A stretch of 64,000 nt of DNA from a virus, in IMG/VR virus record IMGVR_UViG_3300023112_001138, positions 1 through 64,000 of that record; one strand, written 5' to 3'. Shown one piece after another: positions 3,517 through 44,035 of the stretch (position 1 is its first letter; each line of letters starts with the position of its first letter). The position numbers and the translations under genes are program-made. Below the pieces are notes generated by a model, which was not told where the DNA came from, did no database searches, and was given only the letters and a program-made list of their open reading frames with translations.

Positions 3517-4755
3517 ATGGAACATAAAAAAAGAATAAACGAAACGAATTTTATGCGGAGAATGATGGGGTTACAACCTATCAACGAAGGAATTGGTGTA
3601 GATGCTGTTGATCAAGAGCAAATGCAACTAGTAAGTAATGTAATGACACCGGATGGGGCTACTGTTGCTGGTATTAGTACAGTAGCATTTAAAGATTCTG
3701 ATGAAGGTAGAGAATGGATGTCAGGAGACAAAAAAGAATTATCTGGAGAAAGATTAAAAAATGCTACTCAGCAAACTTTAGACACTGATAAAAAAATAGG
3801 TGGTTGGAAAATTAAAGATCAGGGTGATGCGATAACTATTGAAGATAAAAGGGGTGTATTTTTCAGGGTAGATACAGTTACGAAGGGGAACCCTAACTGG
3901 GCATATGTTGCCACACCTTCATCAAATTACGATGGATATGATAATAAGGACGAAGATTTCATTGATGGTATCGGTCAATCATTTCAAACATATGAGGAAT
4001 ATGCAACTTGGATAAGAGAAATATTATCTAAATATTCACCTAGTGTTGTGGGAACTACAAAACCTAAAATAGGTAAATTTGTGTGTAAAAGAGATTTAGA
4101 TTTCAATTGGTTTTTTGATGAGTTAAAAATTGGTGAAGATTATCTAAAAAAAGGTGATTGTGGTGTAGCAGTTGAGGTGGCTCAAGATCATATAAACGAG
4201 TATGAAGGTTCTGAAGTAATAAAAGTTGATGGTAAATATGGTACCGATACTATTAGTCAAGTTAAAGTGGTACAAGCTGAATTAGACGATGTTAAAGCTG
4301 ATGGTTATTACGGACAAAAAACATACGAAGCAATAGTTAAAGCACTTTGGGATGATATGGAAAGAATAACCCCAAAACCACCTAAAATGATTGACACTGA
4401 TATTGACACTGATATTGACACTGATATTGACACTGATATTGACACTGATATTGACACTGATATTGAATCAGATTTTGATTTTGATAGAGATGTTAAAGGA
4501 GGCGGTGCTATCCCCAATATAGATATAGAAGATTTTGAAGCGGTTGAAGATGAGTTTGAGAAAAAAGCTAAGGCTAAGGCAGAAAAACGAAGTAAAAAAG
4601 GTAAACGAAAACTTAATAGAATAAATAAAAGAAGTTCTAAACTTAAGAAAAGGTATAATTTTGAAGAACAAAAAACTTTTAAAGTTAAAAAGAATGGTAA
4701 AGTAATTACATTAACTGAAAGTGATGTTAAAAAAATTATTAACCTAAAAAAATAA
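3517..4755 (+). CDS. Peptidoglycan-binding domain protein with an N-terminal leader and a C-terminal LTES tag
   Basis: LKKGDCGVAVEVAQ...VDGKYGTDT...ADGYYGQKT; N-terminus MRRMMGLQPINE; C-terminus KVKKNGKVITLTESDVKKII. Confidence 0.7.
   Translation: MEHKKRINETNFMRRMMGLQPINEGIGVDAVDQEQMQLVSNVMTPDGATVAGISTVAFKDSDEGREWMSGDKKELSGERLKNATQQTLDTDKKIGGWKIKDQGDAITIEDKRGVFFRVDTVTKGNPNWAYVATPSSNYDGYDNKDEDFIDGIGQSFQTYEEYATWIREILSKYSPSVVGTTKPKIGKFVCKRDLDFNWFFDELKIGEDYLKKGDCGVAVEVAQDHINEYEGSEVIKVDGKYGTDTISQVKVVQAELDDVKADGYYGQKTYEAIVKALWDDMERITPKPPKMIDTDIDTDIDTDIDTDIDTDIDTDIESDFDFDRDVKGGGAIPNIDIEDFEAVEDEFEKKAKAKAEKRSKKGKRKLNRINKRSSKLKKRYNFEEQKTFKVKKNGKVITLTESDVKKIINLKK
4390..4466 (+). repeat. 12-bp tandem repeat x6 (ATTGACACTGAT; IDTD)
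   Basis: Six perfect in-frame copies plus a partial copy. Confidence 0.95.
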
Positions 4756-4767
4756 TTTCAATAAATT

Positions 4768-4792
4768 AACCCTTTTTAGTAAGGGTTTTTTT
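4768..4792 (+). terminator. Rho-independent terminator
   Basis: AACCCTT-tttagt-AAGGGTT followed by a T run, just after the 4755 stop. Confidence 0.75.
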
Positions 4793-4889
4793 ATGCCCTA
4801 ATATTTTAAAAGTGGTGCGATGTAAATACCCCTAAAAATTTATACCCGTAACTATTTTCTTTTTAGTATTTATGGATATTTATCATTAA

Positions 4890-7800
4890 ATGAGTAAATC
4901 CGAAACCGTTAAAAATAAATTTGTTGATTATGTCGTAAGGGATATGATGAATGATATTACAATAGAAGAAGAGTTTATTCGGTTTGGAATGTCCTACAAC
5001 GGAACCCCGGAAGGTATATTCTACGATTACGAAGAATGGTTTGATTCGGGTGATCGATTTGATTATATGAATTATGAGGAAAGTTTTATTTCTGATTTAT
5101 CAATATTAATCCGAATACACCTAGCCAATGCTTATGGAATACCTTGGGAAGATAGTAAAACTGATGTTAGTGTTTCACCTATATTATTAAAGTTATATAA
5201 TATAATATTAAAAAAAGTGCATCACCTTTGGGGTCGCAACAAACGGTTAAATGAATCCAAAAAACATGCGGCAGATTCTATATTTATGAAAATAGATAAC
5301 CCTAAACAACATAAATTCTTTAATAGAATAGCAGATAAGGTTGTTGAATTGGTGGAAGTAAGAGAAAAGGAAGGATGGGGAAAATCTATATTTTTAACTG
5401 ATTTACTGGATCCTAGGTTTCCTGGTCAAGGGACTAGTTTACCCCGACGGGAAGGGGGTTATTCTGACTATCAAACATTCGTCTCAGATATGACACCAAC
5501 GATGCCCGATTTTTTTCCTATGTTAGAAAATTATTGGTCCATAGATGATGTATCTGTAAATATTTTTATTATAGTTAAATTTATATACCCTAAGTTATGG
5601 AATAATTTTTACAAAGGTGAAGATCGCCCAGAAGAGTCCACTGATTATGGGGAAAGGGCATTAGATTATGGGGAAAATAAGGAAGAGGTAAATGAATCCA
5701 CAAGTAAAGAACAAAAATTAATCGATGTAGTAACTAAAGACTTATTGAAAAATACTAGACTGTCAAAAAGTTATTCGTTTAACATTTCCCACAACAAAGG
5801 GGTTAGGACAGTTAAGTTACCTAATGGACTTTCGGACTGGAATTCTTATGATCTACAAACAACAGATGATGCACCCTATACGATAGGTCAATATATGGTA
5901 GATACATATGGATTAACTACCGATGAAATTAAGGGGGTATGGTTAAAATATAGAAATAAATTAATAAATACGTTAGAAGATAATGACCCAAACCCATCTA
6001 TTGTTATGGGTGAATCTGAATCTAAAAATAATCTTGAAAAATTAATTAATAAACTCTATAAAGAAATATGGGGTTATCTTATTACCAATAAAAATGAGGT
6101 ACATTTAGACTTACCTTATTTTAAAGATTTAAAGTCTGATGCCCAAATCACTTATGACCCTTATCGTCAAGATATTGGAAATTTTAATAGTAATTTTATA
6201 CGTGGGGAGTTAGAAAGATTTGTCGCGTATCACCTCTATAAAACTATGGATATTGGGGAGAAGTTACAATTCCGAAATTATGACCCCATGGTTAAACCCA
6301 TTGCAGAAAAACTAATTAAAAGTTTATATAAAGAAGTGGTTGATAAAGGTTTTGTGAAATCTAATCAGGTGGAAGAAAAAAAATACAATTTAAGTGAAAC
6401 TATAATGGATGATATTCCTTTAGAACAATTTAAAAAAGATAATCCGGAAGTAGTAGAAATTTTAAATAGGTTTCCCGAACCACTCCAAAGAGAATTAGCG
6501 GTAGAAAGAAAAAACCCAAAAGAATTTGTGGAAGAACATGGTAATTGGTATGTTAGAGATAAAGACCAACCCCTTAAAACTATGGAAATAAAAAACATCT
6601 TAGATGATGAAGAAACCAAAGGTATTGTTAGTAGAACCCCACAAGAAGTTGTAGATGCCATTAATACCCAATGGGGAACTAATTTTGTTGGTGGTGAGGT
6701 TTATGATCCAAATCCTGATAGATATTTTAAGTATGCTGATTTACCTGCCGAAACTGCCGATCCCTCAGTAATGGTAAATTATGATATTATCTATGGTGTT
6801 GGTAGATTGGTGGCGGCATTAATACGAGGAGATAAAACTATTAAGGTATGGGATATTGTAGATAAGAAAGAAAATTTAAACGAATCAGTAGATTGGTCAG
6901 ATAAAAAAGGTAATAAATACCATAGAAATGGTATGGTTAATAGAATTGTCGATGATTTCCTAAAAATGACTGAGATAATGGATGAGTCTATTAAATTTCA
7001 TATGAAACAACACATTATTAATAACCTACGTAGACATAGGGACCCTTACCTTATCTATGTTTATGATGAAAATGGGTTAAGTAAAGAAAGTAAAGATTTA
7101 CTTTATGAGGGACTTACTAATGGTGTGCAGTGGTACATGGAGCAAACCGGGTTAATAAATTATCACAACACATATGATAATACTCGACCACCTGAAGATA
7201 TAGAATTACTTAAAATGGTTGTAGATACTTTATACCCTATTATAGTAAAAGGGATAGTGGACTATAATGAAGATGAGGAATGGACAATGGATACATTATA
7301 TGATAGTAAATTTTTGGGGGAATCTACTGATAAACAAGTGCAATATGTAAATTATATAATAAAACATTTAATGGACAATACTAAGTGGTGGGATGCTTCT
7401 TTTAGTGTGCTACTTTTAAATAATGACACACCTATTACCACCTATATAAATTATGGAGATTTTGTATTGGTTAAACCGACACAGGTGGTAGATATATTGA
7501 AAGGGTTCGGGGTGACCGAACAAGAAGAGAAGAGGATTTGGACCACTTATAGTCGGTGGGTATTAGAAAAAGTTATGAGAGAAGGTAATATAGATTGGCC
7601 CAATAAAGAAACACATAAAAAGAGATACCCGTTTTTAGTCGAATCCACAGATATTACTACTAAGTTTGTAGAAAAAATACCGGATATAATCAGGGAGTCA
7701 TCAGTACCTAAATACTTAGATAAAATATTCAATAGTGTTGTTAAAGAAATTAGATTTGATGTTGATAAGTATGGGGCAGTTGTTATCCCATTTATTAGTA

Positions 7801-9197
7801 AGGAAAGGTATAGTAGTTCTACCGGAGGATTAGAAACCCAAGAATATACATTATCCAGACATGATAGGAATACAGAATTACGAGATGGGGGGATATTACA
7901 TAGTGAATTTAAATCTTATTTTCATAAAATTTATGGGTTATCAGAAGACGAATCTAATGAGTTATTTAGGTTAGTTAAACAATATATTAAAGATGAATTA
8001 TATTATAAATCTGTTTTAGATCAAATTTTACAATCAGTGCAAGATGACTATATTCAAGGGTATGGAACCACTATAGAGGTTACCCCTGAAATATCATTCG
8101 ATTTAAAAAAATATAGTGACTTCAAAGAATACGTATATTGGTGGCATAGTATAGTTGACCCCGATGATTATGGAGATGGTTCTGCAGATATTACTGATAA
8201 CATGGTTAAAAAGTTATATGATGATGTATGGGATACATTAAAAAATACTATTACTTTAAATGAAGGGTGGCCAGCAGATCCCGAATTAGATGAAGAAGGA
8301 AACGAAAAATGGGGTAGAATGTTTCCCGATAAGTTTTATCTAAAAATATTTAAGATGATAGATAAAGATCCGGAATTTTTTATGTCGGATACATTACTAA
8401 ACTTAGGTTTCGAAGGAGAGGAAGAGTACGACATACTTTATAATTATTTTGTTAACTATTCTGATAGAAAAGATTATTACATAGATTTTACAATTGATCC
8501 AGACGATATCGCTTCGTTTTTTGATGATAGTGATTATGATTTGGAGAAAATGGTTAAGGGTTTATTAGAAGGTGACTGGGATTATCATGGGTGGTATAAT
8601 GAATCCTTTCCATTTGATGATTATATGTTGGATTATATAGATGATAGAAGTTGGGGAGAAATTGCAAAAATATTAGAGGTAGATAATATTACAGATGCAA
8701 AAGAATTGATGAGTGGGGATATTGGAAGTGAACATTTAGAATCCCATTATGAATTAATGGAAATGAGAATCGATGATGTTCAGAGTATAATCGCTCAGTC
8801 CACGACCGAAGCACAAGCAGATGCGGATATCTCTTATTTACATGACGATATAATGGATGAAGTAAATGACTGGTTTAAACATGGGGAATTTAATTTTGGT
8901 GAAGGGGAGTTTGTAGGTAGAATAGAAGTAGGTGATGTAATGAGTGGAGAAAAAGGCTTATCACAATTAGAAGCTGATTTAACACAGGGTTACCCCACTT
9001 TTACGGAGTTAGTTCATGATGTACTCTCTGAGGAATTAAATGACTGGGGTTATACTGACGATTATATATTTGTAGGAAGTGAAAAACCCTACATTAATAC
9101 TGACAAACATTTTAGATATGGTGGTGCGGGAACTATAAATAACCAACATTTTAATGATATGTTAGTGGAAAGATTAAGTTGGGAATACTCGGAATAG
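4890..9197 (+). CDS. 1435-aa modular protein (putative polyprotein) including a ParB/Srx-like module
   Basis: Modules separated by LNES, VNES, MGES, LSET, LNES, LGES, LVES, IRES and LNEG; repeated (Y/F)G(L/I/V)xxxE motifs; PSVMVNYDIIYGVGRLVAALIRGDKTIKV; two TATTTAT boxes at 4866-4883. Confidence 0.7.
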   Translation: MSKSETVKNKFVDYVVRDMMNDITIEEEFIRFGMSYNGTPEGIFYDYEEWFDSGDRFDYMNYEESFISDLSILIRIHLANAYGIPWEDSKTDVSVSPILLKLYNIILKKVHHLWGRNKRLNESKKHAADSIFMKIDNPKQHKFFNRIADKVVELVEVREKEGWGKSIFLTDLLDPRFPGQGTSLPRREGGYSDYQTFVSDMTPTMPDFFPMLENYWSIDDVSVNIFIIVKFIYPKLWNNFYKGEDRPEESTDYGERALDYGENKEEVNESTSKEQKLIDVVTKDLLKNTRLSKSYSFNISHNKGVRTVKLPNGLSDWNSYDLQTTDDAPYTIGQYMVDTYGLTTDEIKGVWLKYRNKLINTLEDNDPNPSIVMGESESKNNLEKLINKLYKEIWGYLITNKNEVHLDLPYFKDLKSDAQITYDPYRQDIGNFNSNFIRGELERFVAYHLYKTMDIGEKLQFRNYDPMVKPIAEKLIKSLYKEVVDKGFVKSNQVEEKKYNLSETIMDDIPLEQFKKDNPEVVEILNRFPEPLQRELAVERKNPKEFVEEHGNWYVRDKDQPLKTMEIKNILDDEETKGIVSRTPQEVVDAINTQWGTNFVGGEVYDPNPDRYFKYADLPAETADPSVMVNYDIIYGVGRLVAALIRGDKTIKVWDIVDKKENLNESVDWSDKKGNKYHRNGMVNRIVDDFLKMTEIMDESIKFHMKQHIINNLRRHRDPYLIYVYDENGLSKESKDLLYEGLTNGVQWYMEQTGLINYHNTYDNTRPPEDIELLKMVVDTLYPIIVKGIVDYNEDEEWTMDTLYDSKFLGESTDKQVQYVNYIIKHLMDNTKWWDASFSVLLLNNDTPITTYINYGDFVLVKPTQVVDILKGFGVTEQEEKRIWTTYSRWVLEKVMREGNIDWPNKETHKKRYPFLVESTDITTKFVEKIPDIIRESSVPKYLDKIFNSVVKEIRFDVDKYGAVVIPFISKERYSSSTGGLETQEYTLSRHDRNTELRDGGILHSEFKSYFHKIYGLSEDESNELFRLVKQYIKDELYYKSVLDQILQSVQDDYIQGYGTTIEVTPEISFDLKKYSDFKEYVYWWHSIVDPDDYGDGSADITDNMVKKLYDDVWDTLKNTITLNEGWPADPELDEEGNEKWGRMFPDKFYLKIFKMIDKDPEFFMSDTLLNLGFEGEEEYDILYNYFVNYSDRKDYYIDFTIDPDDIASFFDDSDYDLEKMVKGLLEGDWDYHGWYNESFPFDDYMLDYIDDRSWGEIAKILEVDNITDAKELMSGDIGSEHLESHYELMEMRIDDVQSIIAQSTTEAQADADISYLHDDIMDEVNDWFKHGEFNFGEGEFVGRIEVGDVMSGEKGLSQLEADLTQGYPTFTELVHDVLSEELNDWGYTDDYIFVGSEKPYINTDKHFRYGGAGTINNQHFNDMLVERLSWEYSE

Positions 9198-9212: not shown

Positions 9213-9857
9213 ATGAGACATAGAGATAGGACAAACAATATTTTAAAATCTAATCTTCTTATACAAATGAGGGGTAGATTAATTACTGAAGCACCACCTT
9301 GGCATGATACTATGGGTGATCCTGTAGTTGCAAAAAAAGCACAACATGGTTATTTAGAAGGTGATGATGAAGAGTTAATAGGTAAAGAAGTTTGGTTTCA
9401 CACCAATCGACATAATATAAAATATAATAAGAATGGTGCATTTGGGATATATGGTAGATCCCCTAGAGGTAGAAAAGATGTTAAGGGTGGGGCATTAGGA
9501 TACACAAACGATATTTTATTGGGTGGTGTTATTAATTTTGATATTAGTCCGGGATATCATAATGTAATGAGGACAACAAGAGATGCTGGGGATATGGAAA
9601 AACGATCTCAAGTTGTTGGTGTTGGGGGAGTGGTTCAATCACTACCTAAAGATCCTGTAGATTTAAAGGGTGTAGGTGAGGAGATAAAGTATAATCCTTT
9701 TATCTCAGATTATTTTTATACTGCTGGTGGGGGAGAAAAAGTATTGGGGGCTGAATTTGTTTATGGTGAATATAGACCCGATGGTAGTTATTCTTTACAT
9801 GCCATTAATCCCGTAATAGAACCATTTAATTTAGGTGAATATAACCCCATAAGTTAA
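9213..9857 (+). CDS. Hypothetical phage protein with a leader ending LITE
   Basis: 214-aa ORF; ATATTTATA at 9200-9208. Confidence 0.6.
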   Translation: MRHRDRTNNILKSNLLIQMRGRLITEAPPWHDTMGDPVVAKKAQHGYLEGDDEELIGKEVWFHTNRHNIKYNKNGAFGIYGRSPRGRKDVKGGALGYTNDILLGGVINFDISPGYHNVMRTTRDAGDMEKRSQVVGVGGVVQSLPKDPVDLKGVGEEIKYNPFISDYFYTAGGGEKVLGAEFVYGEYRPDGSYSLHAINPVIEPFNLGEYNPIS

Positions 9858-10669: not shown

Positions 10670-11148
10670 GGTTCCTTATTAAAAAAATATTAAGAGAGGG
10701 GTATAGTGAAGGTATTAATGACTATAAAAAAGTACAATCACAAGAACACGAAGAATATTTCACCAACAAAAAAATATTACCTTTAATAATAAAATATTTA
10801 GATAGTATCATTAATATAGATATGATCGTTAAATCGAATGAAAATTCTACAACATATACTGTTTATTTTGATGATGTAGAACCTATCGCTAAACATTATT
10901 GTTATGGGTGTAGTGGTACATTCCATTACCCTACAGGTACACACGATATATACACTATGTCACATGCGGAAGATAATGATCAATTTACTAGTGCAGTAGA
11001 AGGTGCGTTAATAGATATGTTCGGTGGTGAACTAAGTAACATGGAATTTTATAGTTTAATTTATAAATATTTATTCGATATAATAAAAAAATATATGGAT
11101 AATGATATGGTTATCAATTATCCTGAAGAACACGATATGGATTGGTAA
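10666..11148 (+). CDS. Hypothetical protein with IKKILRE leader
   Basis: MRFLIKKILREG; ATGA overlap with the upstream gene. Confidence 0.65.
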   Translation: MRFLIKKILREGYSEGINDYKKVQSQEHEEYFTNKKILPLIIKYLDSIINIDMIVKSNENSTTYTVYFDDVEPIAKHYCYGCSGTFHYPTGTHDIYTMSHAEDNDQFTSAVEGALIDMFGGELSNMEFYSLIYKYLFDIIKKYMDNDMVINYPEEHDMDW

Positions 11149-12245
11149 TGAAAAGATTAATTAAAAAAATATTAAAGGAGGAAATATCTAATCCTAAACA
11201 AGAGAAATATTACGAGTATATTATTAATAATATAATGAAAGATATCTCAGTAACACCGGAGAAAGTATTTTATACCAGTATGGACACGGCATTAGATAAC
11301 ACTGAATTAAGAGTTTATGTGGAAAATATTATGGACGACTGGAGAGAAATGGATAGAAGAGGGTGGAGAGTAAGTGATGTTGACAATACATCAACGGATT
11401 TCGATGTCGATAGATTTATTTTCGATAAACAAGGGTATAGTAGGAAAGAAGGTTATACTAACCCAATAACTAACATATTACCACATAAACAAATGCCACA
11501 TTCATGGGCAATGGAAGAAGTTACATATGAAGTATTAAAAGAATTAGAAGAAAAGGGTGTAATGGTTCAGTTGGGGGGGTTCGAAGAGTTTGAACAATTT
11601 TTACCAGACTACCTAATAGAAATTGGTACATCACATAATTACAATAATCAAATTTTCAGAATTCCTTTATATTATAATATAATAACCCTTAATTACTATT
11701 TTACTATATCAGGAAAAGAGGCTATTATAAACATGCTATTACATAGATTAAAATATTTTTATGGTTTAAATGATGATGAGTCTAAAAAAATAGTTGGTAA
11801 ACTAATATTAAAAATAGTGGGGGAATTAGAAAACGAGTATTCCTTAAAAATAGAAAAAATAGAGCCAGAGTATTATACCTTTGATGTTGGTAGGGTGGAT
11901 GAGTCTACTATATCTGATTTTATAAGTTTTACCAAGGATGAATTAGGGTTAGATAATGATTTTAGTGTAGAATTAGAAGATGATGGGGATGAATTGGAAA
12001 CCTTAGCGAGTTATGATATAGAAGATAATAAAGTAAAAGTGTTATCTAAAAATAGATCATTACCTGATATTATAAGGTCTATTGCACATGAATTGGTGCA
12101 CCATAAGCAAAATCAAGAAGGGGTATTAACTGGGGATGAAGATGAAGGTGCTGATGGGTCCCCACAAGAGAATGAAGCCAATGCGAGGGCGGGAAAAATA
12201 GTTAGAAGATTCGGAAAGAGATATCCAGAGATTTATGACTTATAA
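11148..12245 (+). CDS. IKKILKEE-leader protein with C-terminal zincin-like (HExxH) metallopeptidase module
   Basis: Start at ATG 11148; after VDES comes RSIAHELVHHKQ...ENEANARAG. Confidence 0.7.
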   Translation: MKRLIKKILKEEISNPKQEKYYEYIINNIMKDISVTPEKVFYTSMDTALDNTELRVYVENIMDDWREMDRRGWRVSDVDNTSTDFDVDRFIFDKQGYSRKEGYTNPITNILPHKQMPHSWAMEEVTYEVLKELEEKGVMVQLGGFEEFEQFLPDYLIEIGTSHNYNNQIFRIPLYYNIITLNYYFTISGKEAIINMLLHRLKYFYGLNDDESKKIVGKLILKIVGELENEYSLKIEKIEPEYYTFDVGRVDESTISDFISFTKDELGLDNDFSVELEDDGDELETLASYDIEDNKVKVLSKNRSLPDIIRSIAHELVHHKQNQEGVLTGDEDEGADGSPQENEANARAGKIVRRFGKRYPEIYDL

Positions 12246-26769: not shown

Positions 26770-27090
26770 ATGGGAACATATTTAACGGGAACATATTCAG
26801 TAATTCATACTAGTGGTACTACAGATTTTAATAATTTCGTATATAGTGCGGTGTATTTTAATACTACAGGGCCATTTACAATAAATGGTACCAACGTAGT
26901 TGGGTCAATAGGTGAAACATTAGATATTGTTGTAGATGAAAATACTACAATATTATCTACAGATTTTCTTTTGTTAGGAAATCCAATTGCACCACAAACA
27001 AAAGTTCAAACTGGTTTAATATCTGGTGATTCACATAACGAAGTGTGGCAATTTGTAAATATAAAAACTGGATTACCAACAAACGGATAA
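26770..27090 (+). CDS. Small Thr/Gly-rich putative virion protein
   Basis: 106-aa beta-rich composition; ATATTTATT at 26747-26755. Confidence 0.55.
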   Translation: MGTYLTGTYSVIHTSGTTDFNNFVYSAVYFNTTGPFTINGTNVVGSIGETLDIVVDENTTILSTDFLLLGNPIAPQTKVQTGLISGDSHNEVWQFVNIKTGLPTNG

Positions 27091-27122
27091 AAATTAAAAT
27101 TAAAAATATAAAAAATAAAAAA

Positions 27123-29018
27123 ATGAGAAAATTTACAAACCCAAAAACTCTAAAAGGTCAAGATAAAATCAATAGGATTACTGATCTAATGAGTAGAATG
27201 ACAACACTAAATGAAAGTACTTCACTTTCAGAAATAGATTTCATAAAAAAGGGACCAAATGGAATTGTTTATGGTATTATTAGAGAAAATCATAACTACT
27301 TTATTAAAACAACTGAAAAAACATCTGGAACATTAATTGCAGAAGATTTTGAATACGTTGGTGGTGCTAAAAATAAATACATTGAAAGGTATAATACATA
27401 TACTGAAGCATTAAAACAATTAAATATGAAATTTGATATGTTGAATGAGTCATATGGTATTGAAGTGGGATCAAATCTTTTTGAATCCGATGGTCATGAG
27501 ATTCAGGTATCCAACGCTAGTGGGGTAGTAGTTAAAGAGACTAAGGTTTCTGACCCCGATAATGATGATGATGGTAAATTAGAGTTAATAAATGATGAAG
27601 AGGAAGATGTTGAAGAACAAAAGCAAGTAATTAGGGTAAAAACACCAAAAGCGCCAGTAGAAGATACAGTAGAGGTAGATGAATTTGCGATGGATGATAT
27701 GGAAACTGCTGAAGGTGGTGGAGAAGACCCATTCGCTGCTGAAGATGGTGGAGAAGGAATGGATGATGAAGGAATGGATGATGAAGGAATGGATGATGAA
27801 GATGGGGACGAAACAACCAAAAAGATACAAAAACTTACTGGAAAAGTCACACAACTAATGAGAGATATGGATGACCCTGATTCGGAGTTAGATAAATACG
27901 TCATTAACTCAGTTATTTCAGCAATTGATTTTGAAGAAATGGATGAGGAAGATGTTGAAGATGTTATTGCTAAGATTGAGGGTGAAGATGAAGAAGCTGG
28001 AGAAGGTGATGAATTTGATACGGAAGAGGTTGATGTTGATTTAGATGTAGAAGAAGTTCCTGAAGGTGAACCGTCAGAAGATCAAATTACTGAAGATTCT
28101 GAAGGTAGGGAAACTTTTGACTATGGTGAGGATGAAGGTCACGACCATAAAGAAGAAGAAGATTTAAAAGAGAAAGAAGAAATGTCACCACAAGATAGGA
28201 TTAGTGAAATAAAAAAACATCTTGAAGCCCTTGAGTCTGATATGTCTTATGATGAAGACCATGAAGATAGAGAAGAAGAAGGTACCGAATTTAACGAATC
28301 AAGGTCATTTTCCAAAAAACAATTAATGGAAACATTTTTAAGAAAAAATGTTAAAAATTCACTAAAAAAAGTTTTAAAAGAAAACCACTCAATGTGTGAA
28401 GAATGTTTGGGGGAAGGTTGTGAGTCTTGTATGGGAGAACATCATAATTTGTCAGATACTAATTATGGTAAATATAATAGAAATGAATATATGTTAGAAG
28501 ATGACGATATGGATATGTTGGCTGGGGATGATGTACATGAAGATATAGATTATATGGATACTGAAATGTTAGGACAAGATGTTTTATACCGAACCGGAGA
28601 AGAACCTAAATTTGATAGGGATGGTGATGGTATATCTAATGAGTATGATGTAGATAGTAACGATGATGGTAGTATAGATTACGGAATGGGTAATAAAATG
28701 TATGATTGGCCAGAACGCACTTTTGGTAGAAAGGGTGATAGGGATTCTGACGGTATCCCAAATACAAACGATGACAATCCTGGAACACCTAGTTGGGAAG
28801 ATGACGGAGATGATTTTATAGAAATAGATTTTGAATCGTTGATGGGAAATGCTCCGGTTAAAGAACCGGGTGTCGCACCACCAACAACTACACCAAGTAC
28901 CACACCAGGTAAACCAAGATGGAAAAAAATTAGGAAACCTGAACCAGGTACACAGGGAAAACCTAAAGCAGAAGTAGCAAGAAGAAAAGCTACTATACGA
29001 AAAGGAAGAATGTATTAA
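27123..29018 (+). CDS. Large acidic putative head core protein with DxDxDG repeats and a Pro-rich C-terminus
   Basis: Start moved to ATG 27123; leader ...KINRITDLMSRMTTLNES; DRDGDGISN, DRDSDGIPN; EGMDD x3; CEECLGEGCESC. Confidence 0.65.
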   Translation: MRKFTNPKTLKGQDKINRITDLMSRMTTLNESTSLSEIDFIKKGPNGIVYGIIRENHNYFIKTTEKTSGTLIAEDFEYVGGAKNKYIERYNTYTEALKQLNMKFDMLNESYGIEVGSNLFESDGHEIQVSNASGVVVKETKVSDPDNDDDGKLELINDEEEDVEEQKQVIRVKTPKAPVEDTVEVDEFAMDDMETAEGGGEDPFAAEDGGEGMDDEGMDDEGMDDEDGDETTKKIQKLTGKVTQLMRDMDDPDSELDKYVINSVISAIDFEEMDEEDVEDVIAKIEGEDEEAGEGDEFDTEEVDVDLDVEEVPEGEPSEDQITEDSEGRETFDYGEDEGHDHKEEEDLKEKEEMSPQDRISEIKKHLEALESDMSYDEDHEDREEEGTEFNESRSFSKKQLMETFLRKNVKNSLKKVLKENHSMCEECLGEGCESCMGEHHNLSDTNYGKYNRNEYMLEDDDMDMLAGDDVHEDIDYMDTEMLGQDVLYRTGEEPKFDRDGDGISNEYDVDSNDDGSIDYGMGNKMYDWPERTFGRKGDRDSDGIPNTNDDNPGTPSWEDDGDDFIEIDFESLMGNAPVKEPGVAPPTTTPSTTPGKPRWKKIRKPEPGTQGKPKAEVARRKATIRKGRMY

Positions 29019-32201: not shown

Positions 32202-33323
32202 GTGAAATTAACATTTAAAAATATAATTACAGAAGATATTAGGAAATCCCCTAAACTAGAGAATGCCATTTTTAAATTTCTTAAAAGGAAGGACGTTTGG
32301 CGAGGGAGAACAGAAGACGAAGATAAAAGTAGTTTGCAAGCTTCTGATGATGTAGAAAAAACATTTGGTTTGGATGAATGGGATGCTAAGTTTTTTACAT
32401 TTAAATGGTTAGTTAATAATGGTTACGACACTCTAGATAGTGATGGTGAGATTGATTATTGGGTTAAAAGTACTGATGACAAATATCAATTTTTAAAAGA
32501 TACTGGATGGTGGGGTAAATTTTATAAACCATATAAATTTATAGATGTAGTAGAGAAGGGTGAAGGTAATCAAAAATTTATCCTTGTAGATTCTTATTAT
32601 GAATTTAAACCATTATTTGATAATGAATGGATAAGTGATGCAATTTTTGGTGGCGATTATGTTGAGATATTTGGGTGGTATAACTACCCGCTAGAAGAAA
32701 TGTGGGATAGCCTTGATGATAAAGGGTTACAATCTATAATAGAAGTTCTCCCTTCATATACATCCGAAGATGATTTATTTCATAACGCCCCTGAATCGTT
32801 TTTAGATGTAGTTGACCCAGATACCGGTAGTATCCCAATGGATAGAAGAACAATAAATTTTATTAAAGATGGGGATACCTCTTCATTACTTTATGATTTG
32901 ATTAATGAGTTAGATGAATTTGATGAATTAAAAAGTGATATGGTAAATCTTTATAATGTAGCATATAATGATGCTGCACATTCAGAATTATTCAAGGGTG
33001 CAATGTCAGAGTTGGAAAGTTTTTTCGGGGGCAACCCAAAATGGGTGCAGGTTCCGGGTCCAGATAAAAATAATGAGTTAAATATGTTAGAAATCCCCAT
33101 CAAACAAGAAGATTATGACAATTTATATAAAGAATGGTTGGACACCTTTTCAGATTTCCCAGAACATTCTTATTCAGAGTATATAGAATCGTGGGGAGAG
33201 GTATTAAGAGAAAGTGGGGATGAGCTGAGATTTCCTGACTTACAATATTTTTATCCAGACCATAATATAGTGAATGATTATTTTAATGATTCATTACGAG
33301 ATAATTTATATGGTGGTAACTAA
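32202..33323 (+). CDS. Acidic hypothetical protein resembling the last module of the 4890..9197 protein
   Basis: GTG start; leader MKLTFKNIITE; shared GWYN and FND(S/M)L motifs; ATATTTATA at 32165-32173. Confidence 0.6.
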   Translation: MKLTFKNIITEDIRKSPKLENAIFKFLKRKDVWRGRTEDEDKSSLQASDDVEKTFGLDEWDAKFFTFKWLVNNGYDTLDSDGEIDYWVKSTDDKYQFLKDTGWWGKFYKPYKFIDVVEKGEGNQKFILVDSYYEFKPLFDNEWISDAIFGGDYVEIFGWYNYPLEEMWDSLDDKGLQSIIEVLPSYTSEDDLFHNAPESFLDVVDPDTGSIPMDRRTINFIKDGDTSSLLYDLINELDEFDELKSDMVNLYNVAYNDAAHSELFKGAMSELESFFGGNPKWVQVPGPDKNNELNMLEIPIKQEDYDNLYKEWLDTFSDFPEHSYSEYIESWGEVLRESGDELRFPDLQYFYPDHNIVNDYFNDSLRDNLYGGN

Positions 33324-34222: not shown

Positions 34223-36019
34223 ATGGATAGAGCAGAAAAATTAAAAATATACGCACGTTGTTTAGGTGACCCTACATATGCAATTGAAACGTTTTTGAAA
34301 ACATATGATTTAACACAAAAAGGATTTGTTCCCTTTAAGTTATATATTAAACAAAAAAAAATAATAGAATCATATGAAAACCACAATAGAAATATTGTTA
34401 CTAAACCTCGTCAGGCAGGTGTATCTACTACTACTGCTGCATATATCGCAGTAAAAATTGCTTTCGGTGACCCTAATAACCCTTGGAAAGTATTGGTATT
34501 AGCAAATAAACAAACTTTAGCCCAAGAATTTCTTAAAAAAATAAAAGATTTTTTAGATCAAATGCCTGCATGGGTATGGGGAGTAAAAGAAGGTGACTCA
34601 TATTTAGATATTGAAGCTAAGGGACATATAAAAACAAAGGGCACAAAATGTGAGGTTAAAGCTTTGGCAACATCTAAAGATGCTCTTAGGGGGTATACCC
34701 CTACATTCTTAATAATGGATGAAGCTGCGTTTATCGATAATGGTGCTGAGGTATTTGGTGCTGCATTAACCTCTTTGGGTACTGGTGGTAAGGTAACGTT
34801 AATATCAACACCTAATGGGCAAGATGCGTTATATTATAGAACGTATGACGGTGCAAAGAAAGGGGACAATAATTTTAAAATTATTGAAATGAGGTGGCAT
34901 GAAGATATAAGATATAATAGAAATTTAAGGTGGTTAAGGGGTGAGGAAGAAATAATTGTTTGTGAAAGTATCGGTAGAGAAAAATTAAGATGGGAATATA
35001 GTGGTAACACATATGAAACTGATAGTATCCACATAGATGATTACACTATAATGGTTAAAGATGGATGGAAAGCATCCTCCCCATGGTATGAAGAAATGTG
35101 TAGGGATATGAATGGGGATAAAAAACAAATAGCCCAAGAATTAGATGTGTCATTTGTTAGTTCTGGTGGTAACGTTATAGATGATGAATATATCGAATAC
35201 CAAAACGATAATTATGTTAAAGAACCAAAATATATGGCAGAAATGGAAAAATCTATGTGGATATGGAAAGAACCAGAAGAGGGTCATAAATATATTATGG
35301 GTGTGGATGTATCTAGAGGAGATGGAAAAGATAGTTCCACTATAGTAATATTAGATTTTGATGGTTTAGAACAGGTTGCAGAATTTCAATATAAACTACC
35401 ACCTGATTTATTAGCGGAAATAGTTTATAAGTATGGTAATCTTTATCAAGCATATACTGTTGTAGATATAACTGGTGGTATGGGGGTTTCTACAGTAATG
35501 AAACTTCTAGAAATGGGTTATAAATATCTTCATTATGATGACCCTAAAAGTAGAAGCTTAAGTGAAAAATACGCAAAAAGTGTATATAAACAAGGTGATA
35601 AGGTTCCAGGTTATAATGTAGGGAACACAAGGTTACAAATGGTTAGTGATTTAGAAGAGCATGTAAGAGAAAGTAAAACAATTATTAGATCAGTTAGATT
35701 GATTTCTGAATTAAAGACTTTTGTGTATAGAAATGGTAGGCCAGATCATATGGATGGGTATCATGATGATATAATTATGGCATTGGCAATGCCAATATTT
35801 ATTGTACAAACAACATTTAAAAAATTAAAAGCCATAGAAAAACAAACAAAAGCAATGTTAGATAGTTGGGTTACTGTGTCTAGTGGTAATGAAACAGATA
35901 AAATAGATAAACCCCACGTTAACCCTTTTTATACTAACACCCCAACGTATCACCCAAAAGAGGCATCTAACGGAAATAATGATAAAGGTGAATTTAATTG
36001 GTTATTTGGGATTAGATAA
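34223..36019 (+). CDS. terL: Terminase large subunit (T4 gp17-like)
   Basis: KPRQAGVST Walker A; LIMDEAAF Walker B; ISTPNG; GVDVSRG and HDDIIMALA nuclease motifs. Confidence 0.95.
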   Translation: MDRAEKLKIYARCLGDPTYAIETFLKTYDLTQKGFVPFKLYIKQKKIIESYENHNRNIVTKPRQAGVSTTTAAYIAVKIAFGDPNNPWKVLVLANKQTLAQEFLKKIKDFLDQMPAWVWGVKEGDSYLDIEAKGHIKTKGTKCEVKALATSKDALRGYTPTFLIMDEAAFIDNGAEVFGAALTSLGTGGKVTLISTPNGQDALYYRTYDGAKKGDNNFKIIEMRWHEDIRYNRNLRWLRGEEEIIVCESIGREKLRWEYSGNTYETDSIHIDDYTIMVKDGWKASSPWYEEMCRDMNGDKKQIAQELDVSFVSSGGNVIDDEYIEYQNDNYVKEPKYMAEMEKSMWIWKEPEEGHKYIMGVDVSRGDGKDSSTIVILDFDGLEQVAEFQYKLPPDLLAEIVYKYGNLYQAYTVVDITGGMGVSTVMKLLEMGYKYLHYDDPKSRSLSEKYAKSVYKQGDKVPGYNVGNTRLQMVSDLEEHVRESKTIIRSVRLISELKTFVYRNGRPDHMDGYHDDIIMALAMPIFIVQTTFKKLKAIEKQTKAMLDSWVTVSSGNETDKIDKPHVNPFYTNTPTYHPKEASNGNNDKGEFNWLFGIR

Positions 36020-40118: not shown

Positions 40119-40811
40119 ATGTTAGAAATATTAAAGAGTAATGAAGTAAATAAAAAAGGTATTCTTGTAGAATACGATTCAGGATACATCTCTCCAAAAG
40201 ATAATAAACATTTTATTAATGAGGTAAATAAATTAACCAAGGGTGGAACAATAGTTGAAACTCCTTTGGTTGTTTATGCTGTAATGCAGAAATATGGTGT
40301 TGAGAATAAGAACGAAAGGATATACCCTGAAAATATTTTAAGAAGAGAAGCAGAAAACTACCTTAAACTAATTAACGAAAGAAGAGCAATGGGTGAGGCA
40401 GATCACCCGGAGAGTTCAATAGTATCGATAAGTAGGATTTCACATAATGTCACAGAATTATGGTGGGAGGGAAATGTCCTAATGGGGAAATTAGAAATTA
40501 TAATGTCACCAGGATTTGTCAACCAAGGGATTATTTCTTGTGAAGGAGATTTAGTTGCTAATTTACTACGTAATAATTTAAAGATGGGTGTATCTTCTAG
40601 AGGTGTAGGTTCCCTGGAGAAGGAGCATGGTAAAAATATAGTTCAAGATGACTTTGAATTAATATGTTGGGATGTGGTAACATCACCGTCAACTCCCGGT
40701 TCTTGGATATATAATAGAGAACCAAGTAAGGAAGAACAAATGGCAGAATCTAAAGATAATTCTGATAAGAATTTACTTATTGGTTCTTTAGATGATTTTT
40801 TATGTGACTAA
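40119..40811 (+). CDS. Prohead core protease (T4 gp21-like)
   Basis: NKNERIYP; GEADHP; RISH; GVSSRGVGS; WDVVTSPSTPG; ATATTTATT at 40094-40102. Confidence 0.93.
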   Translation: MLEILKSNEVNKKGILVEYDSGYISPKDNKHFINEVNKLTKGGTIVETPLVVYAVMQKYGVENKNERIYPENILRREAENYLKLINERRAMGEADHPESSIVSISRISHNVTELWWEGNVLMGKLEIIMSPGFVNQGIISCEGDLVANLLRNNLKMGVSSRGVGSLEKEHGKNIVQDDFELICWDVVTSPSTPGSWIYNREPSKEEQMAESKDNSDKNLLIGSLDDFLCD

Positions 40812-42283: not shown

Positions 42284-44035
42284 ATGGGACATTTATTAAA
42301 CTCAGGTGAAGTCGGAAATATCGGACTTGAACACTTGAAACAAATAAGATCTAAAACTATTTCGAAGTGGAACAAAATTGGTTTCCTAGAAGGTTTAAAA
42401 GGTCACGTAAGAGAGAACATTGCTCAGTTATATGAAAACCAAGCATCGGCTCTTTTAAACGAATCTACGAGTTCAAACTCATCAGGTTCATTCGAAACAG
42501 TTGTTTTTCCAATTGTAAGGAGAGTATTCTCTAAATTATTGGCTAATGACATCGTTTCAGTACAAGCTATGAATATGCCGATTGGTAAATTATTCTTCTT
42601 TGTACCGAAAACAACTGGTAGGAATCATGCAGCCTTAAACGGACCAGCATTGTCAAATCAGGAATGTGTATTTTCAGCTTGTGGTGGTAACACACTATCA
42701 GTATTTCAAGAAAAGAATCTTTATGATATCTTTTATAATGATGGATTATTTGATGCGTCTAAAGGACAATCAACACTATTTTCGGATGGTGGAATTGATC
42801 CAGTTATCTTAAGTGCAAACGGAGAATCCGTTTCAACAATATTTGCTGATCAACCTTTAGCGGCTGATGGTAGTATGAGAAATTTAACTTTCTGTATTAC
42901 TGGATTTACTGGTACAGGTGCTGGTAGAATGGTTGGTGCAGATGGTAATGAAATGGATACTGAGGCTTTCTTAGCTTCATTACACATAGTAAATGGTTCT
43001 GACCCAATTATGGCTGGTGACGGTAGTGGTAATGTAGTTATTGCAGCCAATGCTAACGTACCATTTAGATTAGTAGCACAAAAATATGGAAAAGGTATTG
43101 TCGATTACGGTGATATTTGTACTCCAGCAGGTTGTTTACTAGTTGAAGTGGATCTTACAACACCAGCTTGTGTTAGTTGTAGTGCTAATACCTTCGATGG
43201 TTACATTGGTGGTAGTGACGCAACAACATCAGCGGCAACATTCAGTGTAAACTGGATGACATATGCATCTTTAGAATATGCAACTGAAATGGGTGAGGTA
43301 TCATTCGAACTTGATGAAGTTGTTGTTTCTGTAACAGAGAGAAAGTTGAGAGCAACTTGGTCTCCTGAACTAGCACAAGATGTTAGTGCATTCCATAACA
43401 TTGATGCTGAAGCTGAATTAACGGCTTTATTATCTGAACAAGTAGCAGCTGAAATCGACAGAGAGATTCTTAGAGATTTAAGAGTAGGTGCAGCTTGGCA
43501 ATTGAGATGGGATTACAATGGTTGGAAACGAACTGCTAGTGGTGGTTTCAACGCTTACACTCAAAAAGAGTGGAATCAAACGTTGATTACTAAAATTAAT
43601 CAGTTATCAGCTCAAATTCATAAATCAACTCTAAGGGGTGGTGCTAACTTCGTAGTAGTATCTTCTGAGATATCAGCTATTTTTGATGACTTAGAATACT
43701 TCCACGTATCAAATGCGGCTCCAGAGCAAGATCAATACAACATGGGTATTGAGAAAGTAGGTTCATTAGGAGGACGTTACACAGTGTATCGTGACCCTTA
43801 CGCACCAGCTAACTCAATAATTGTTGGACATAAAGGAAAATCGTTATTGGATACTGGGTACATTTATGCACCTTACGTACCATTACAATTGACTCCAACG
43901 TTACAAAACCCATTCAACTTCGCACCAACGAAGGGGATAATGACAAGATACGCTAAGAAAATGGTTAATAACCGTTTCTACGGAGCGTTGACTGTTGATG
44001 GTGTTGTTACATTTGACATCAATGAGTTGAGATAG
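42284..44035 (+). CDS. Major capsid protein (T4 gp23-like)
   Basis: PIVRRVF...VSVQAM; RKLRATWSPELAQD...AFHNIDAEAEL; EIDREI; YAPYVPL; GIMTRY. Confidence 0.97.
   Translation: MGHLLNSGEVGNIGLEHLKQIRSKTISKWNKIGFLEGLKGHVRENIAQLYENQASALLNESTSSNSSGSFETVVFPIVRRVFSKLLANDIVSVQAMNMPIGKLFFFVPKTTGRNHAALNGPALSNQECVFSACGGNTLSVFQEKNLYDIFYNDGLFDASKGQSTLFSDGGIDPVILSANGESVSTIFADQPLAADGSMRNLTFCITGFTGTGAGRMVGADGNEMDTEAFLASLHIVNGSDPIMAGDGSGNVVIAANANVPFRLVAQKYGKGIVDYGDICTPAGCLLVEVDLTTPACVSCSANTFDGYIGGSDATTSAATFSVNWMTYASLEYATEMGEVSFELDEVVVSVTERKLRATWSPELAQDVSAFHNIDAEAELTALLSEQVAAEIDREILRDLRVGAAWQLRWDYNGWKRTASGGFNAYTQKEWNQTLITKINQLSAQIHKSTLRGGANFVVVSSEISAIFDDLEYFHVSNAAPEQDQYNMGIEKVGSLGGRYTVYRDPYAPANSIIVGHKGKSLLDTGYIYAPYVPLQLTPTLQNPFNFAPTKGIMTRYAKKMVNNRFYGALTVDGVVTFDINELR

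What the first reader, a model, noticed from the sequence alone, without database searches (positions are those of the whole stretch)
4890..9197. 1435-aa putative polyprotein of ~100-310 aa modules punctuated by protease-type sites
Seen: x-x-E-(S/T/G) junctions at 5247 (LNES), 5688 (VNES), 6006 (MGES), 6390 (LSET), 6876 (LNES), 7314 (LGES), 7635 (LVES), 7689 (IRES) and 8256 (LNEG). Several are followed by a similar opening helix (KEQKLIDVVTKDLLKNT, KQVQYVNYIIKHLMDNT, PKYLDKIFNSVVKEI; compare the N-terminal KNKFVDYVVRDMMNDI). One module is ParB/Srx-like and the last resembles the stand-alone gene 32202..33323. Inference: a string of fused cargo genes that the head protease cuts into separate proteins, a polyprotein strategy that is unusual in dsDNA phages.
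Basis: partly seen in the sequence, partly recalled or inferred. Interest (0 to 1): 0.8.

Follow-up and report, generated by a model that had tools for sequence, protein, structure and literature searches.

The report
Protease-jointed phage head-cargo polyprotein
An uncultured marine T4-like phage strings ten small protein modules into one 1435-residue chain whose joints carry the cutting motif of the phage's own head protease, so the chain is probably cut into separate proteins inside the capsid, although no cut has been measured.

Summary
They are true module boundaries. In 15 homologues, modules are dropped, added or reordered at these sites (38 of 48 alignment breakpoints lie within 12 aa; 7 expected). 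All nine fall in coil of the AlphaFold models, eight of them at pLDDT below 50. The four extra motif matches sit in confident helices or strands.

The motif, hydrophobic-x-E|S, equals T4 gp21's L/I-x-E rule. The phage encodes a gp21-type protease with its catalytic His and Ser. Its gp23-like capsid protein has one such site (LNE|ST), in the position of T4's maturation cut.

Decisive comparison: in a 74%-identical relative the last module is a free gene starting MKKLIKNMLNE|GWP, whereas here it follows ...TITLNE|GWP. All 26 distinct free copies carry such a leader.

Module 5 has a ParB/sulfiredoxin-like fold. Modules 1/4 and 3/7 are paralogue pairs, and most modules share one topology. Resemblance to gene 32202-33323 is not supported.

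Cleavage and packaging remain inferred, and this chain lacks an N-terminal leader. This scan has noted similar polyproteins in other uncultured T4-like phages. I found no published description.

The parts
4890..9197 (+). Polyprotein ORF, 1435 aa, 168.6 kDa, pI 4.6, no cysteine
   Evidence: no Pfam, PHROG or NCBIfam hit
4768..4884 (+). Hairpin plus T-run (about 4768-4795) ending the upstream gene, then two TATTTAT cores (4866-4874, 4876-4884) within 25 nt of the ATG. The same box precedes terL, portal, protease and scaffold genes.
   Evidence: RTATTTATW: 50 matches vs 26.7 expected, 0 of 100 shuffles reach 50. Promoter function is inferred.
4890..5255 (+). Module M1 (aa 1-122), ends RLNE|S. Paralogue of M4. 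No N-terminal leader.
5256..5696 (+). Module M2 (aa 123-269), ends EVNE|S
5697..6014 (+). Module M3 (aa 270-375), ends VMGE|S. Paralogue of M7.
6015..6398 (+). Module M4 (aa 376-503), ends NLSE|T. It is the first module, behind the leader MQIIQE|S, in P0007, P0008, P0010 and P0020.
6399..6884 (+). Module M5 (aa 504-665), ends NLNE|S. Its C-terminal half has a ParB/sulfiredoxin-like fold with a conserved NGEIxWGxGRFxAALxRGD motif. It is the most widespread module, often a free 140-200 aa gene.
6885..7322 (+). Module M6 (aa 666-811), ends FLGE|S
7323..7643 (+). Module M7 (aa 812-918), ends FLVE|S
7644..7697 (+). M8, an 18-aa stub (aa 919-936) between LVE|S and IRE|S. It keeps the first 12 and last 6 residues of a module of about 130-140 aa (module X) that is intact in P0005 and P0007-P0015. 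Predicted disordered.
7698..8264 (+). Module M9 (aa 937-1125), ends TLNE|G. A free gene next to M10 in L004 and L005.
8265..9194 (+). Module M10 (aa 1126-1435), net charge -56, pI 4.05, invariant C-terminal motif NTDKHFRYGGAG, pLDDT 85-95, no known fold. A free gene with a leader in 26 distinct loci.
40119..40811 (+). T4 gp21-type prohead protease (Peptidase_S77), the presumed cutting enzyme. His in ADHPES and Ser in GVSSRG are conserved.
42455..42466 (+). LNE|S (aa 58-61) of the gp23-like major capsid protein (ORF 42284-44035). It is the protein's only [LIVM]xE[STGA] site and lies 14 aa before the FPIVRR segment that aligns with T4 gp23 VMGMVRR.
11142..12245 (+). Neighbouring gene with leader MVMKRLIKKILKE|, a module-type opening helix and a C-terminal HELVH zincin-like domain. 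An alternative candidate protease.

Best explanation
ORF 4890-9197 is a precursor polyprotein of head-internal (ejection or cargo) proteins of a distant T4-like myovirus. Shown: it is a string of ten autonomous modules (12-36 kDa plus an 18-aa stub) joined by flexible linkers. Each linker ends in hydrophobic-x-Glu followed by Ser, Thr or Gly. Shown: relatives gain, lose and reorder modules at exactly these joints. Shown: the same modules occur elsewhere as free genes in which a short N-terminal leader ending in the same motif replaces the upstream module. Inferred: the gene is expressed with the head genes, since it shares their promoter-like box. Inferred: the chain is built into the prohead core, and the gp21-type serine protease (40119-40811) cuts after each joint Glu, as it cuts the capsid protein at LNE|ST. 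Inferred: the released acidic proteins stay in the head with the DNA and enter the host at infection. These include a ParB/Srx-like module that may be a nuclease or NTPase, several copies of one alpha-beta-beta-alpha-alpha domain, and the very acidic M10. A polyprotein fixes equal copy numbers of all modules. It also lets one address serve many cargos and lets modules be swapped as cassettes.
For: The sites are real and enriched. They are module boundaries: alignments of each module start at its residue 1 in the homologues, and 38 of 48 breakpoints lie within 12 aa of a site against 7.1 expected. Over 84 distinct joints, P3 is L or I in 59, P1 is E in 65 and P1' is S in 49, whichever module lies upstream. 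Structure models: five of five joints in aa 1-811 and three of four in aa 666-1435 lie in segments with pLDDT below 50; the ninth lies in coil at about 60. pTM is 0.30 and 0.43. Protease: Pfam S77 at 3.8e-22, 31% identity to T4 gp21, PDB 5jbl at 1e-16, catalytic His and Ser conserved. The gene order matches T4 genes 20-67-68-21-22-23. The capsid protein's single site LNE|ST corresponds to T4 gp23 LTE|A. T4 gp21 cuts after L/I-x-E (PMC9026906). Fused versus free: L020 M10 starts MKKLIKNMLNE|GWPEEP, whereas the window has TITLNE|GWPADP. All 26 distinct free M10 genes have such a leader. Many free M5 genes and at least one free M9 gene have one too. About 20 neighbouring genes carry the same type of leader. 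The core and scaffold-like genes beside the protease have the highest density of sites.
Against: No proteomic or biochemical data exist, and the phage is uncultured. P0001 and its closest relatives start MSKSETVKNKF, without the leader that every free module carries, so how the chain reaches the prohead is unexplained. The motif is only three to four residues long in a Glu-rich protein, and plain [LIVM]xE is not enriched. The gene lies 25 kb from the head module. All modules are acidic and M10 has net charge -56, whereas the abundant T4 internal proteins are basic (my own knowledge). Homologues share ancestry, so the breakpoint counts are not independent events.
Confidence: 0.65

Rival explanations
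1. An uncleaved polyvalent protein. The chain is packaged, or acts in the cell, as one 168-kDa multidomain protein. The hydrophobic-x-E-S strings are only conserved linker ends left from gene fusions and have no proteolytic role.
For: Polyvalent phage proteins with 2-15 domains are known, and some, such as N4 vRNAP, are packaged unprocessed (PMC5512222). P0001 has no N-terminal leader. No cut has been observed.
Against: Relic linkers would drift, yet P3 and P1 are kept at 84 distinct joints regardless of the neighbouring module. The motif matches the capsid maturation site and the ends of the leaders. The 18-aa stub M8 keeps both flanking sites. The mature N-terminus GWP is the same after a leader and after a module.
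Confidence: 0.15
2. The chain is cut at the joints by another protease. Candidates are the co-encoded leader-bearing zincin-like protein (11142-12245, HELVH) or a host protease, acting in the head or after ejection.
For: Zincin-like metallopeptidases are the hub domain of polyvalent proteins and are proposed to release their domains (PMC5512222). Gene 11142-12245 has a leader, a module-type opening helix and an HELVH motif, and it is syntenic in L004 and L005.
Against: Glu at P1 with Leu or Ile at P3 is the documented gp21-family rule (PMC9026906), and the same motif is at the capsid protein's maturation site. The zincin match is weak (Pfam M78 E 0.002, below cut-off), and its specificity is unknown.
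Confidence: 0.08
3. A disposable core or scaffold component. The chain helps build the prohead, like T4 gp22, gp67 and gp68, and is cut up so that the pieces leave the head. It would not be cargo for the host.
For: T4 core proteins are cut at many L/I-x-E sites (PMC9026906, PMC5694885). The modules are acidic, as scaffolds often are.
Against: The modules are folded alpha/beta domains with high pLDDT and conserved motifs. They include a ParB/Srx-like fold and are kept as free genes across distant phages. Module content varies freely between close relatives, which is unlike an assembly-critical scaffold. A separate scaffold-like gene sits in the gp22 position.
Confidence: 0.07

Closest known systems
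Phage T4 internal proteins IPI, IPII, IPIII and Alt: capsid targeting sequence (CTS) plus gp21 processing
   Same: Non-structural proteins addressed to the prohead and trimmed by a gp21-family serine protease after L/I-x-E. The loci are variable. The free versions of these modules have 8-19-aa leaders ending in that motif, like the 10-20-aa T4 CTS (PMC9026906, PMC3012670, PMC5694885).
   Different: In T4 each protein is a separate gene with one N-terminal cut. Here up to ten modules sit in one chain with internal cuts predicted to release several mature folded proteins, and the chain itself has no N-terminal leader. There is no sequence similarity to any T4 IP.
Polyvalent proteins of phages and conjugative elements (Iyer, Burroughs, Anand, de Souza, Aravind 2017, PMC5512222)
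   Same: Large mosaic phage proteins of many unrelated, rapidly shuffled domains. They sit in late or virion gene contexts, are proposed to be delivered with the DNA, often include ParB/Srx-type domains, and are proposed to be released by proteolysis.
   Different: Those proteins usually carry their own peptidase domain (a zincin MPTase in 36%) and named LPD domains. P0001 has no Pfam-recognisable domain at all and no peptidase in cis. Instead every joint carries the site of the trans-acting prohead protease.
phiKZ, 201phi2-1 and SPN3US inner-body or ejection proteins
   Same: Many head proteins are cut after Glu by a gp21-related protease at a short motif, with Ser preferred at P1' in SPN3US. 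Several cuts occur per substrate, and paralogue families are found among the cargo (PMC5694885, PMC10052503, PMC9026906).
   Different: There the multiple cuts lie within long N-terminal propeptides that are discarded, leaving one mature protein per gene. Here the cuts are predicted to separate several mature domains.
African swine fever virus polyproteins pp220 and pp62 (from my own knowledge, not checked here)
   Same: A dsDNA virus makes internal virion proteins as polyproteins that a viral protease cuts at a short consensus during maturation, which gives equimolar products.
   Different: Eukaryotic virus, cysteine protease, Gly-Gly-X sites, structural core-shell products, no module shuffling. 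Unrelated in sequence.

Membership tests
Substrates of T4 gp21-type (Peptidase S77) prohead proteases | Cut sites of the form L/I-x-E, C-terminal to Glu | tested here: met
   All nine joints are [LIVM]-x-E. Over 84 distinct joints in the family, P3 is L or I in 59 and P1 is E in 65. Rule from PMC9026906.
Substrates of T4 gp21-type (Peptidase S77) prohead proteases | A cognate protease with catalytic His and Ser is encoded by the same phage | tested here: met
   ORF 40119-40811: Pfam PF03420 at 3.8e-22 (79 bits, cut-off 27), 31% identity to T4 gp21, PDB 5jbl at 1.2e-16. His (ADHPES) and Ser (GVSSRG) align with the two positions replaced by Ala in the 5jbl sequence.
Substrates of T4 gp21-type (Peptidase S77) prohead proteases | Sites accessible to the protease | tested here: met
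   Eight of nine joints lie in segments with pLDDT below 50 and the ninth in coil at about 60. The four non-joint motif matches lie in confident secondary structure.
Substrates of T4 gp21-type (Peptidase S77) prohead proteases | Observed cleavage and presence in proheads or virions | not testable with these tools
   Uncultured phage with no proteome. Needs mass spectrometry or in vitro digestion.
T4-type CTS-addressed internal proteins | Short N-terminal targeting leader that is removed at an L/I-x-E site | tested here: not met
   P0001 and its closest relatives (L011-L014, L018) start MSKSETVKNKF or MDKSKKNK, with no hydrophobic-x-E in the first 25 residues. The feature is met by all 26 free M10 genes, by many free M5 genes and by polyproteins that begin with M4 (MQIIQE|S).
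Polyvalent proteins (Iyer et al. 2017) | Two or more unrelated domains in one phage polypeptide, with mosaic architectures among relatives | tested here: met
   Ten modules. Content and order vary among 15 homologues. M5 also occurs in otherwise unrelated large proteins (P0016, P0066, P0111).
Polyvalent proteins (Iyer et al. 2017) | Hub or signature domains (zincin MPTase, LPD families, ArdC-N, DdrB-like ParB) recognisable in the protein | tested here: not met
   Pfam finds only a sub-threshold HTH_70 match in P0001 and no family with E-value up to 0.01 in five homologues. A zincin-like HELVH protein is a separate neighbouring gene.
ParB/sulfiredoxin superfamily (module M5) | ParB/Srx alpha+beta core fold | tested here: met
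ParB/sulfiredoxin superfamily (module M5) | Sequence-profile membership and the conserved active-site Arg | tested here: inconclusive
   No Pfam ParB_N hit in 20 family members and no PDB profile hit. A nearly invariant GxGR...R.D motif exists, but I did not map its Arg onto the ParB/Srx active site. The ESM Atlas gives only a weak ParB_N lead.
T4 scaffold and core proteins (gp22, gp67, gp68) | Helical assembly proteins degraded to small peptides, with fixed content | tested here: not met
   The modules are alpha/beta domains with pLDDT up to 95, are kept as free genes in distant phages, and vary between close relatives.

The most novel reading that the evidence does not exclude
Leader and joint are one interchangeable element. 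The last 8-10 residues of each module (for example ...TLKNTITLNE) would act both as an internal capsid-targeting sequence and as the protease site, equivalent to the free-gene leader (MKKLIKNMLNE). Genes could then fuse into or split from a polyprotein by simple recombination without losing packaging or maturation. That would make a plug-in cartridge system for equimolar loading of changeable anti-host cargo, and it would explain how a chain with no N-terminal leader is packaged.
Probability: 0.3. Interest if true: 0.75.

Novelty: new variant of a known kind. Interest (0 to 1): 0.62.

Why it matters
Proteins packed in phage heads and injected with the DNA are front-line weapons against host defences. 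Outside T4 and a few giant phages, little is known about which proteins are loaded or how. A polyprotein whose joints are prohead-protease sites would be a new logic for tailed phages. One gene and one promoter would yield many mature head proteins in fixed ratio, and modules could be exchanged as cassettes. This locus offers a clear natural experiment: the same module occurs fused or free with the same predicted mature N-terminus. It also gives nine exact, testable cut sites. It points to unexplored protein families as candidate injected effectors in abundant marine phages: the roughly 100-aa YGLxxxE domain, the very acidic M10, and a divergent ParB/Srx-like domain. The short address-and-cut element could also serve for loading foreign proteins into capsids, as the T4 CTS already does.

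Tried and rejected
- Family searches of P0001 (Pfam, PHROGs, NCBIfam) gave nothing usable. Pfam on five homologues gave nothing.
- tblastn of P0001 against 50,697 phage records found no match. A single-protein scan of IMG/VR found none either; the alignment-based scan did.
- BLASTP among modules and against all ORFs of the contig found nothing significant. Paralogy appears only at profile level.
- Last module versus gene 32202-33323: rejected.
- Hits shorter than the query looked like free modules, but most are contig-end or frameshift fragments that start at internal Met. I did not count them as free genes.
- Profile searches of M5 and M10 against PDB sequences found nothing significant: four chance-level rows (E about 0.8-0.9) for M5 and none for M10. 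The ESM Atlas gave no usable hit for M10.
- Direct DNA repeats at the joints are only 11-15-nt microhomologies such as TAAATGAATCC. That is too short to claim a recombination cassette.
- Literature searches for a phage polyprotein cut by a prohead protease returned only the polyvalent-protein paper and the T4 and giant-phage maturation papers.
Full report
**What is there.** The window belongs to a 74-kb linear contig with 30% G+C. It encodes a large terminase (34223-36019), a portal (36073-38010), a T4 gp21-type prohead protease (40119-40811; Pfam Peptidase_S77 at 3.8e-22) and a gp23-like major capsid protein (42284-44035; Pfam Gp23 at 4.5e-72). The order portal, small core genes, protease, scaffold-like gene, capsid protein matches T4 genes 20-67-68-21-22-23. 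The nearest cultured capsid proteins are only about 42% identical over part of their length: Flavobacterium phage immuto and Microcystis phage Mel-JY01. This is an uncultured, distant T4-like myovirus. ORF 4890-9197 is a single 1435-codon frame. It has no Pfam, PHROG or NCBIfam match and no tblastn match in 50,697 phage records.

**The observation.** All nine listed sites are at the stated coordinates. [LIVM]-x-E-[STG] occurs 13 times against 5.1 expected (P = 0.002). Plain [LIVM]-x-E is not enriched (34 vs 30.5), so what is unusual is Ser/Thr/Gly at P1' and where the sites lie. I name the pieces M1 to M10: aa 1-122, 123-269, 270-375, 376-503, 504-665, 666-811, 812-918, 919-936, 937-1125 and 1126-1435.

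**The sites are module boundaries.**
- A search of 5.8 billion proteins found 15 homologues of 905-1747 aa from marine metagenomes.
- When each module is used as a BLAST query, the alignments start at its residue 1 and end at its last residue, and the composition differs between homologues.
- P0003 lacks M5. P0004 lacks M5 and M7. P0010 starts with M4 and carries M1 further in. P0005 and P0007-P0015 carry an extra module of about 130-140 aa (module X). P0009, P0011 and P0012 end in a different module that is a 24%-identical paralogue of M9. P0016, otherwise unrelated, carries M5 between LNE|T and NLNE|H.
- The 18-residue M8 keeps the first 12 and last 6 residues of module X. It is therefore the remnant of an in-frame deletion that retained both flanking sites.
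- Of 48 internal alignment breakpoints, 38 lie within 12 residues of a listed site, against 7.1 expected. The homologues are related, so these are not independent events.
- Over 84 distinct joints, P3 is L or I in 59, P1 is E in 65 and P1' is S in 49, whichever module lies upstream.

**Structure.** Two AlphaFold2 models built with homologue alignments cover aa 1-811 and 666-1435.
- The first has mean pLDDT 71 and pTM 0.30. Its segments below pLDDT 50 (116-136, 254-271, 365-380, 493-508, 661-666) contain all five joints of that half.
- The second has mean pLDDT 76 and pTM 0.43. Its low segments 253-275 and 455-461 correspond to protein residues 918-940 and 1120-1126. They contain the joints on both sides of M8 and the M9|M10 joint. 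The M6|M7 joint lies in coil at pLDDT about 60.
- Only 19% and 9% of residues in the two models are below pLDDT 50.
It fails.

**Why the head protease is the likely cutter.**
- T4 gp21 cuts after Glu in L/I-x-E (PMC9026906).
- The protease here is 31% identical to gp21 and matches its crystal structure sequence 5jbl at 1e-16. It keeps the His and Ser that are replaced by Ala in that inactive crystal form.
- The capsid protein has exactly one [LIVM]xE[STGA] site, LNE|ST at residues 58-61. It lies 14 residues before the segment that aligns with T4 gp23 VMGMVRR. The T4 maturation site LTE|A lies 30 residues before that segment.
- The densest clusters of such sites on the contig are in the core-like gene 38051-38824 and the scaffold-like gene 40923-42251.

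**Fused and free forms.**
- Scans of IMG/VR and of metagenome contigs returned 62 loci.
- In L020 the proteins are about 74% identical to P0001. There the polyprotein ends in the alternative C-terminal module. M10 follows as a separate 326-codon gene with its own TATTTAT box, and it begins MKKLIKNMLNE|GWPEEP. In the window M10 follows ...TITLNE|GWPADP. A cut after LNE would give the same mature N-terminus in both.
- All 26 distinct free M10 genes begin with a leader of 8-19 residues that ends in hydrophobic-x-E, typically MKKxIRKILRE.
- In the syntenic loci L004 (a 166-kb contig) and L005, M9 and M10 are two adjacent genes, and in L005 each starts with such a leader. In other loci they are fused into proteins of about 490 aa joined by LIE|S.
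- A search of 1.8 billion representative proteins shows M5 to be the most widespread module. It is often a free 140-200-aa protein behind a leader, or it is embedded in other large proteins after LNE|S.
- That search also found other polyproteins made of tandem M3-like modules, each preceded by LNE|ST.

**What the modules are.**
- In relatives the same slot holds another module with a DGNHR string, which Pfam did not recognise.
- The "similar opening helices" reflect paralogy. Orthologue-only profile comparison gives M1~M4 (94%) and M3~M7 (88%). An iterated HMM joins M1, M3, M7 and the first half of M9.
- M1-M4, M6, M7 and M9 share a predicted helix, hairpin, helix, helix topology. A YGLxxxE..W..Y motif recurs at the same relative position in M3, M6, M7 and M9.
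- M10 is confidently folded (pLDDT 85-95) and very acidic (net -56). It has an invariant NTDKHFRYGGAG motif and no detectable relative of known structure or function.
- It does not resemble gene 32202-33323 beyond a 16-residue tail.

**Context.** About 20 of 30 plus-strand genes between 213 and 34180 start with similar leaders, against 10 loosely matching cases among 34 minus-strand genes. Earlier notes on this genome describe this leader system. A box RTATTTATW is enriched (50 vs 26.7 expected). It precedes terL, portal, protease and scaffold genes, and two cores lie just upstream of P0001. Co-expression with the head genes is an inference from this.

**Mechanism and its weak points.**
- Shown: a modular chain with exposed, conserved gp21-type sites at every joint, and a cognate protease in the same phage.
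- Shown: an N-terminal leader and an upstream module are interchangeable in front of the same domain.
- Inferred: incorporation into the prohead, cutting into nine proteins and one peptide, retention in the head, and ejection into the host.
- The main gap is that P0001 has no N-terminal leader. The tail of M9 (LKNTITLNE) resembles the free-gene leader (IKNMLNE), which suggests that joints may double as internal addresses. That is speculation.
- The rivals are an uncleaved polyvalent protein, cutting by the neighbouring leader-bearing HELVH zincin (11142-12245), and a disposable core protein. All are less well supported.

**Comparison and novelty.** It works like the T4 CTS-addressed internal proteins. 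In mosaic architecture it resembles the polyvalent proteins of Iyer et al. 2017 (PMC5512222). It fails one defining feature of each. Unlike the first, it has no N-terminal CTS on this chain and several mature products per gene. Unlike the second, it has no signature or peptidase domain in cis. In phiKZ-like phages the multiple cuts trim propeptides that are discarded (PMC5694885, PMC10052503). I found no paper that describes a prohead-protease-jointed polyprotein. Several other windows of this scan, from other uncultured T4-like phages, carry the same kind of architecture. I did not check those. I rate it a new variant of a known kind.

Noticed in passing
window 213-34180 (+ strand genes): About 20 of 30 genes start with short basic amphipathic leaders ending in hydrophobic-x-E, often with two sites (MKKIIKLTE|NQLNKIVKRVLSE|S, MKIIITE|S, MxxLIKKILKE|E). 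They look like T4 capsid-targeting sequences attached to unrelated proteins, including two with peptidoglycan-binding domains (1285-2157, 3517-4755).
   Followed up: partly
window 11142-12245: A leader-bearing protein with a module-type opening helix and a C-terminal HELVH zincin-like domain. It is syntenic in L004 and L005. It may be a co-packaged metallopeptidase, as in polyvalent-protein systems.
   Followed up: partly
window 27045-29018 and 38051-38824: Two further multi-site proteins. The 657-aa ORF has TTLNE|STS at residue 55 and MLNE|SYG at 133. The 257-aa gene between portal and protease has six sites (15.6 [LIVM]xES per 1000 aa), like the T4 core proteins gp67 and gp68.
   Followed up: no
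window 42284-44035: The gp23-like capsid protein is 583 aa. A stretch of about 230 residues (roughly aa 105-335) has no counterpart in the BLAST alignment to T4 gp23.
   Followed up: no
window 40119-40811 (aa 208-211): The protease has QMAE|S near its C-terminus, aligned with the EITE|S region of T4 gp21. This fits C-terminal self-processing as reported for gp21-type proteases.
   Followed up: no
window 4890-9197: There is not a single cysteine in 1435 residues. Every module except M4 and M7 is acidic.
   Followed up: no
P0016 (1747-aa homologue carrying M5): Some internal joints keep a whole leader-like peptide between two sites (RLDE|SIKRILRE|Q, AITE|TIRQALRE|Q). They look like footprints of fused, formerly free genes.
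   Followed up: no
L020 2883-3473 (-), L004 8655-9095 (-), L005 8628-9029 (-): A conserved opposite-strand gene of about 130-200 aa sits inside the cargo locus in relatives, between the polyprotein and free M10 in L020. Function unknown.
   Followed up: no
window, 50 sites, e.g. 34200, 36036, 40094, 40847: The box (A/G)TATTTAT(A/T) is enriched (50 vs 26.7 expected) and lies just upstream of head and cargo genes. It reads as the reverse complement of the T4 late promoter TATAAATA.
   Followed up: partly
window 9213-9857: The gene just downstream of the polyprotein is strongly conserved and syntenic in L004 and L005 (LIGKEVWFHTNRHNIK...). Its leader ends LITE|A. A loosely similar EVIGKEFWFEYHC module is inside the polyproteins P0013-P0015 (BLAST E 0.2 only).
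   Followed up: partly
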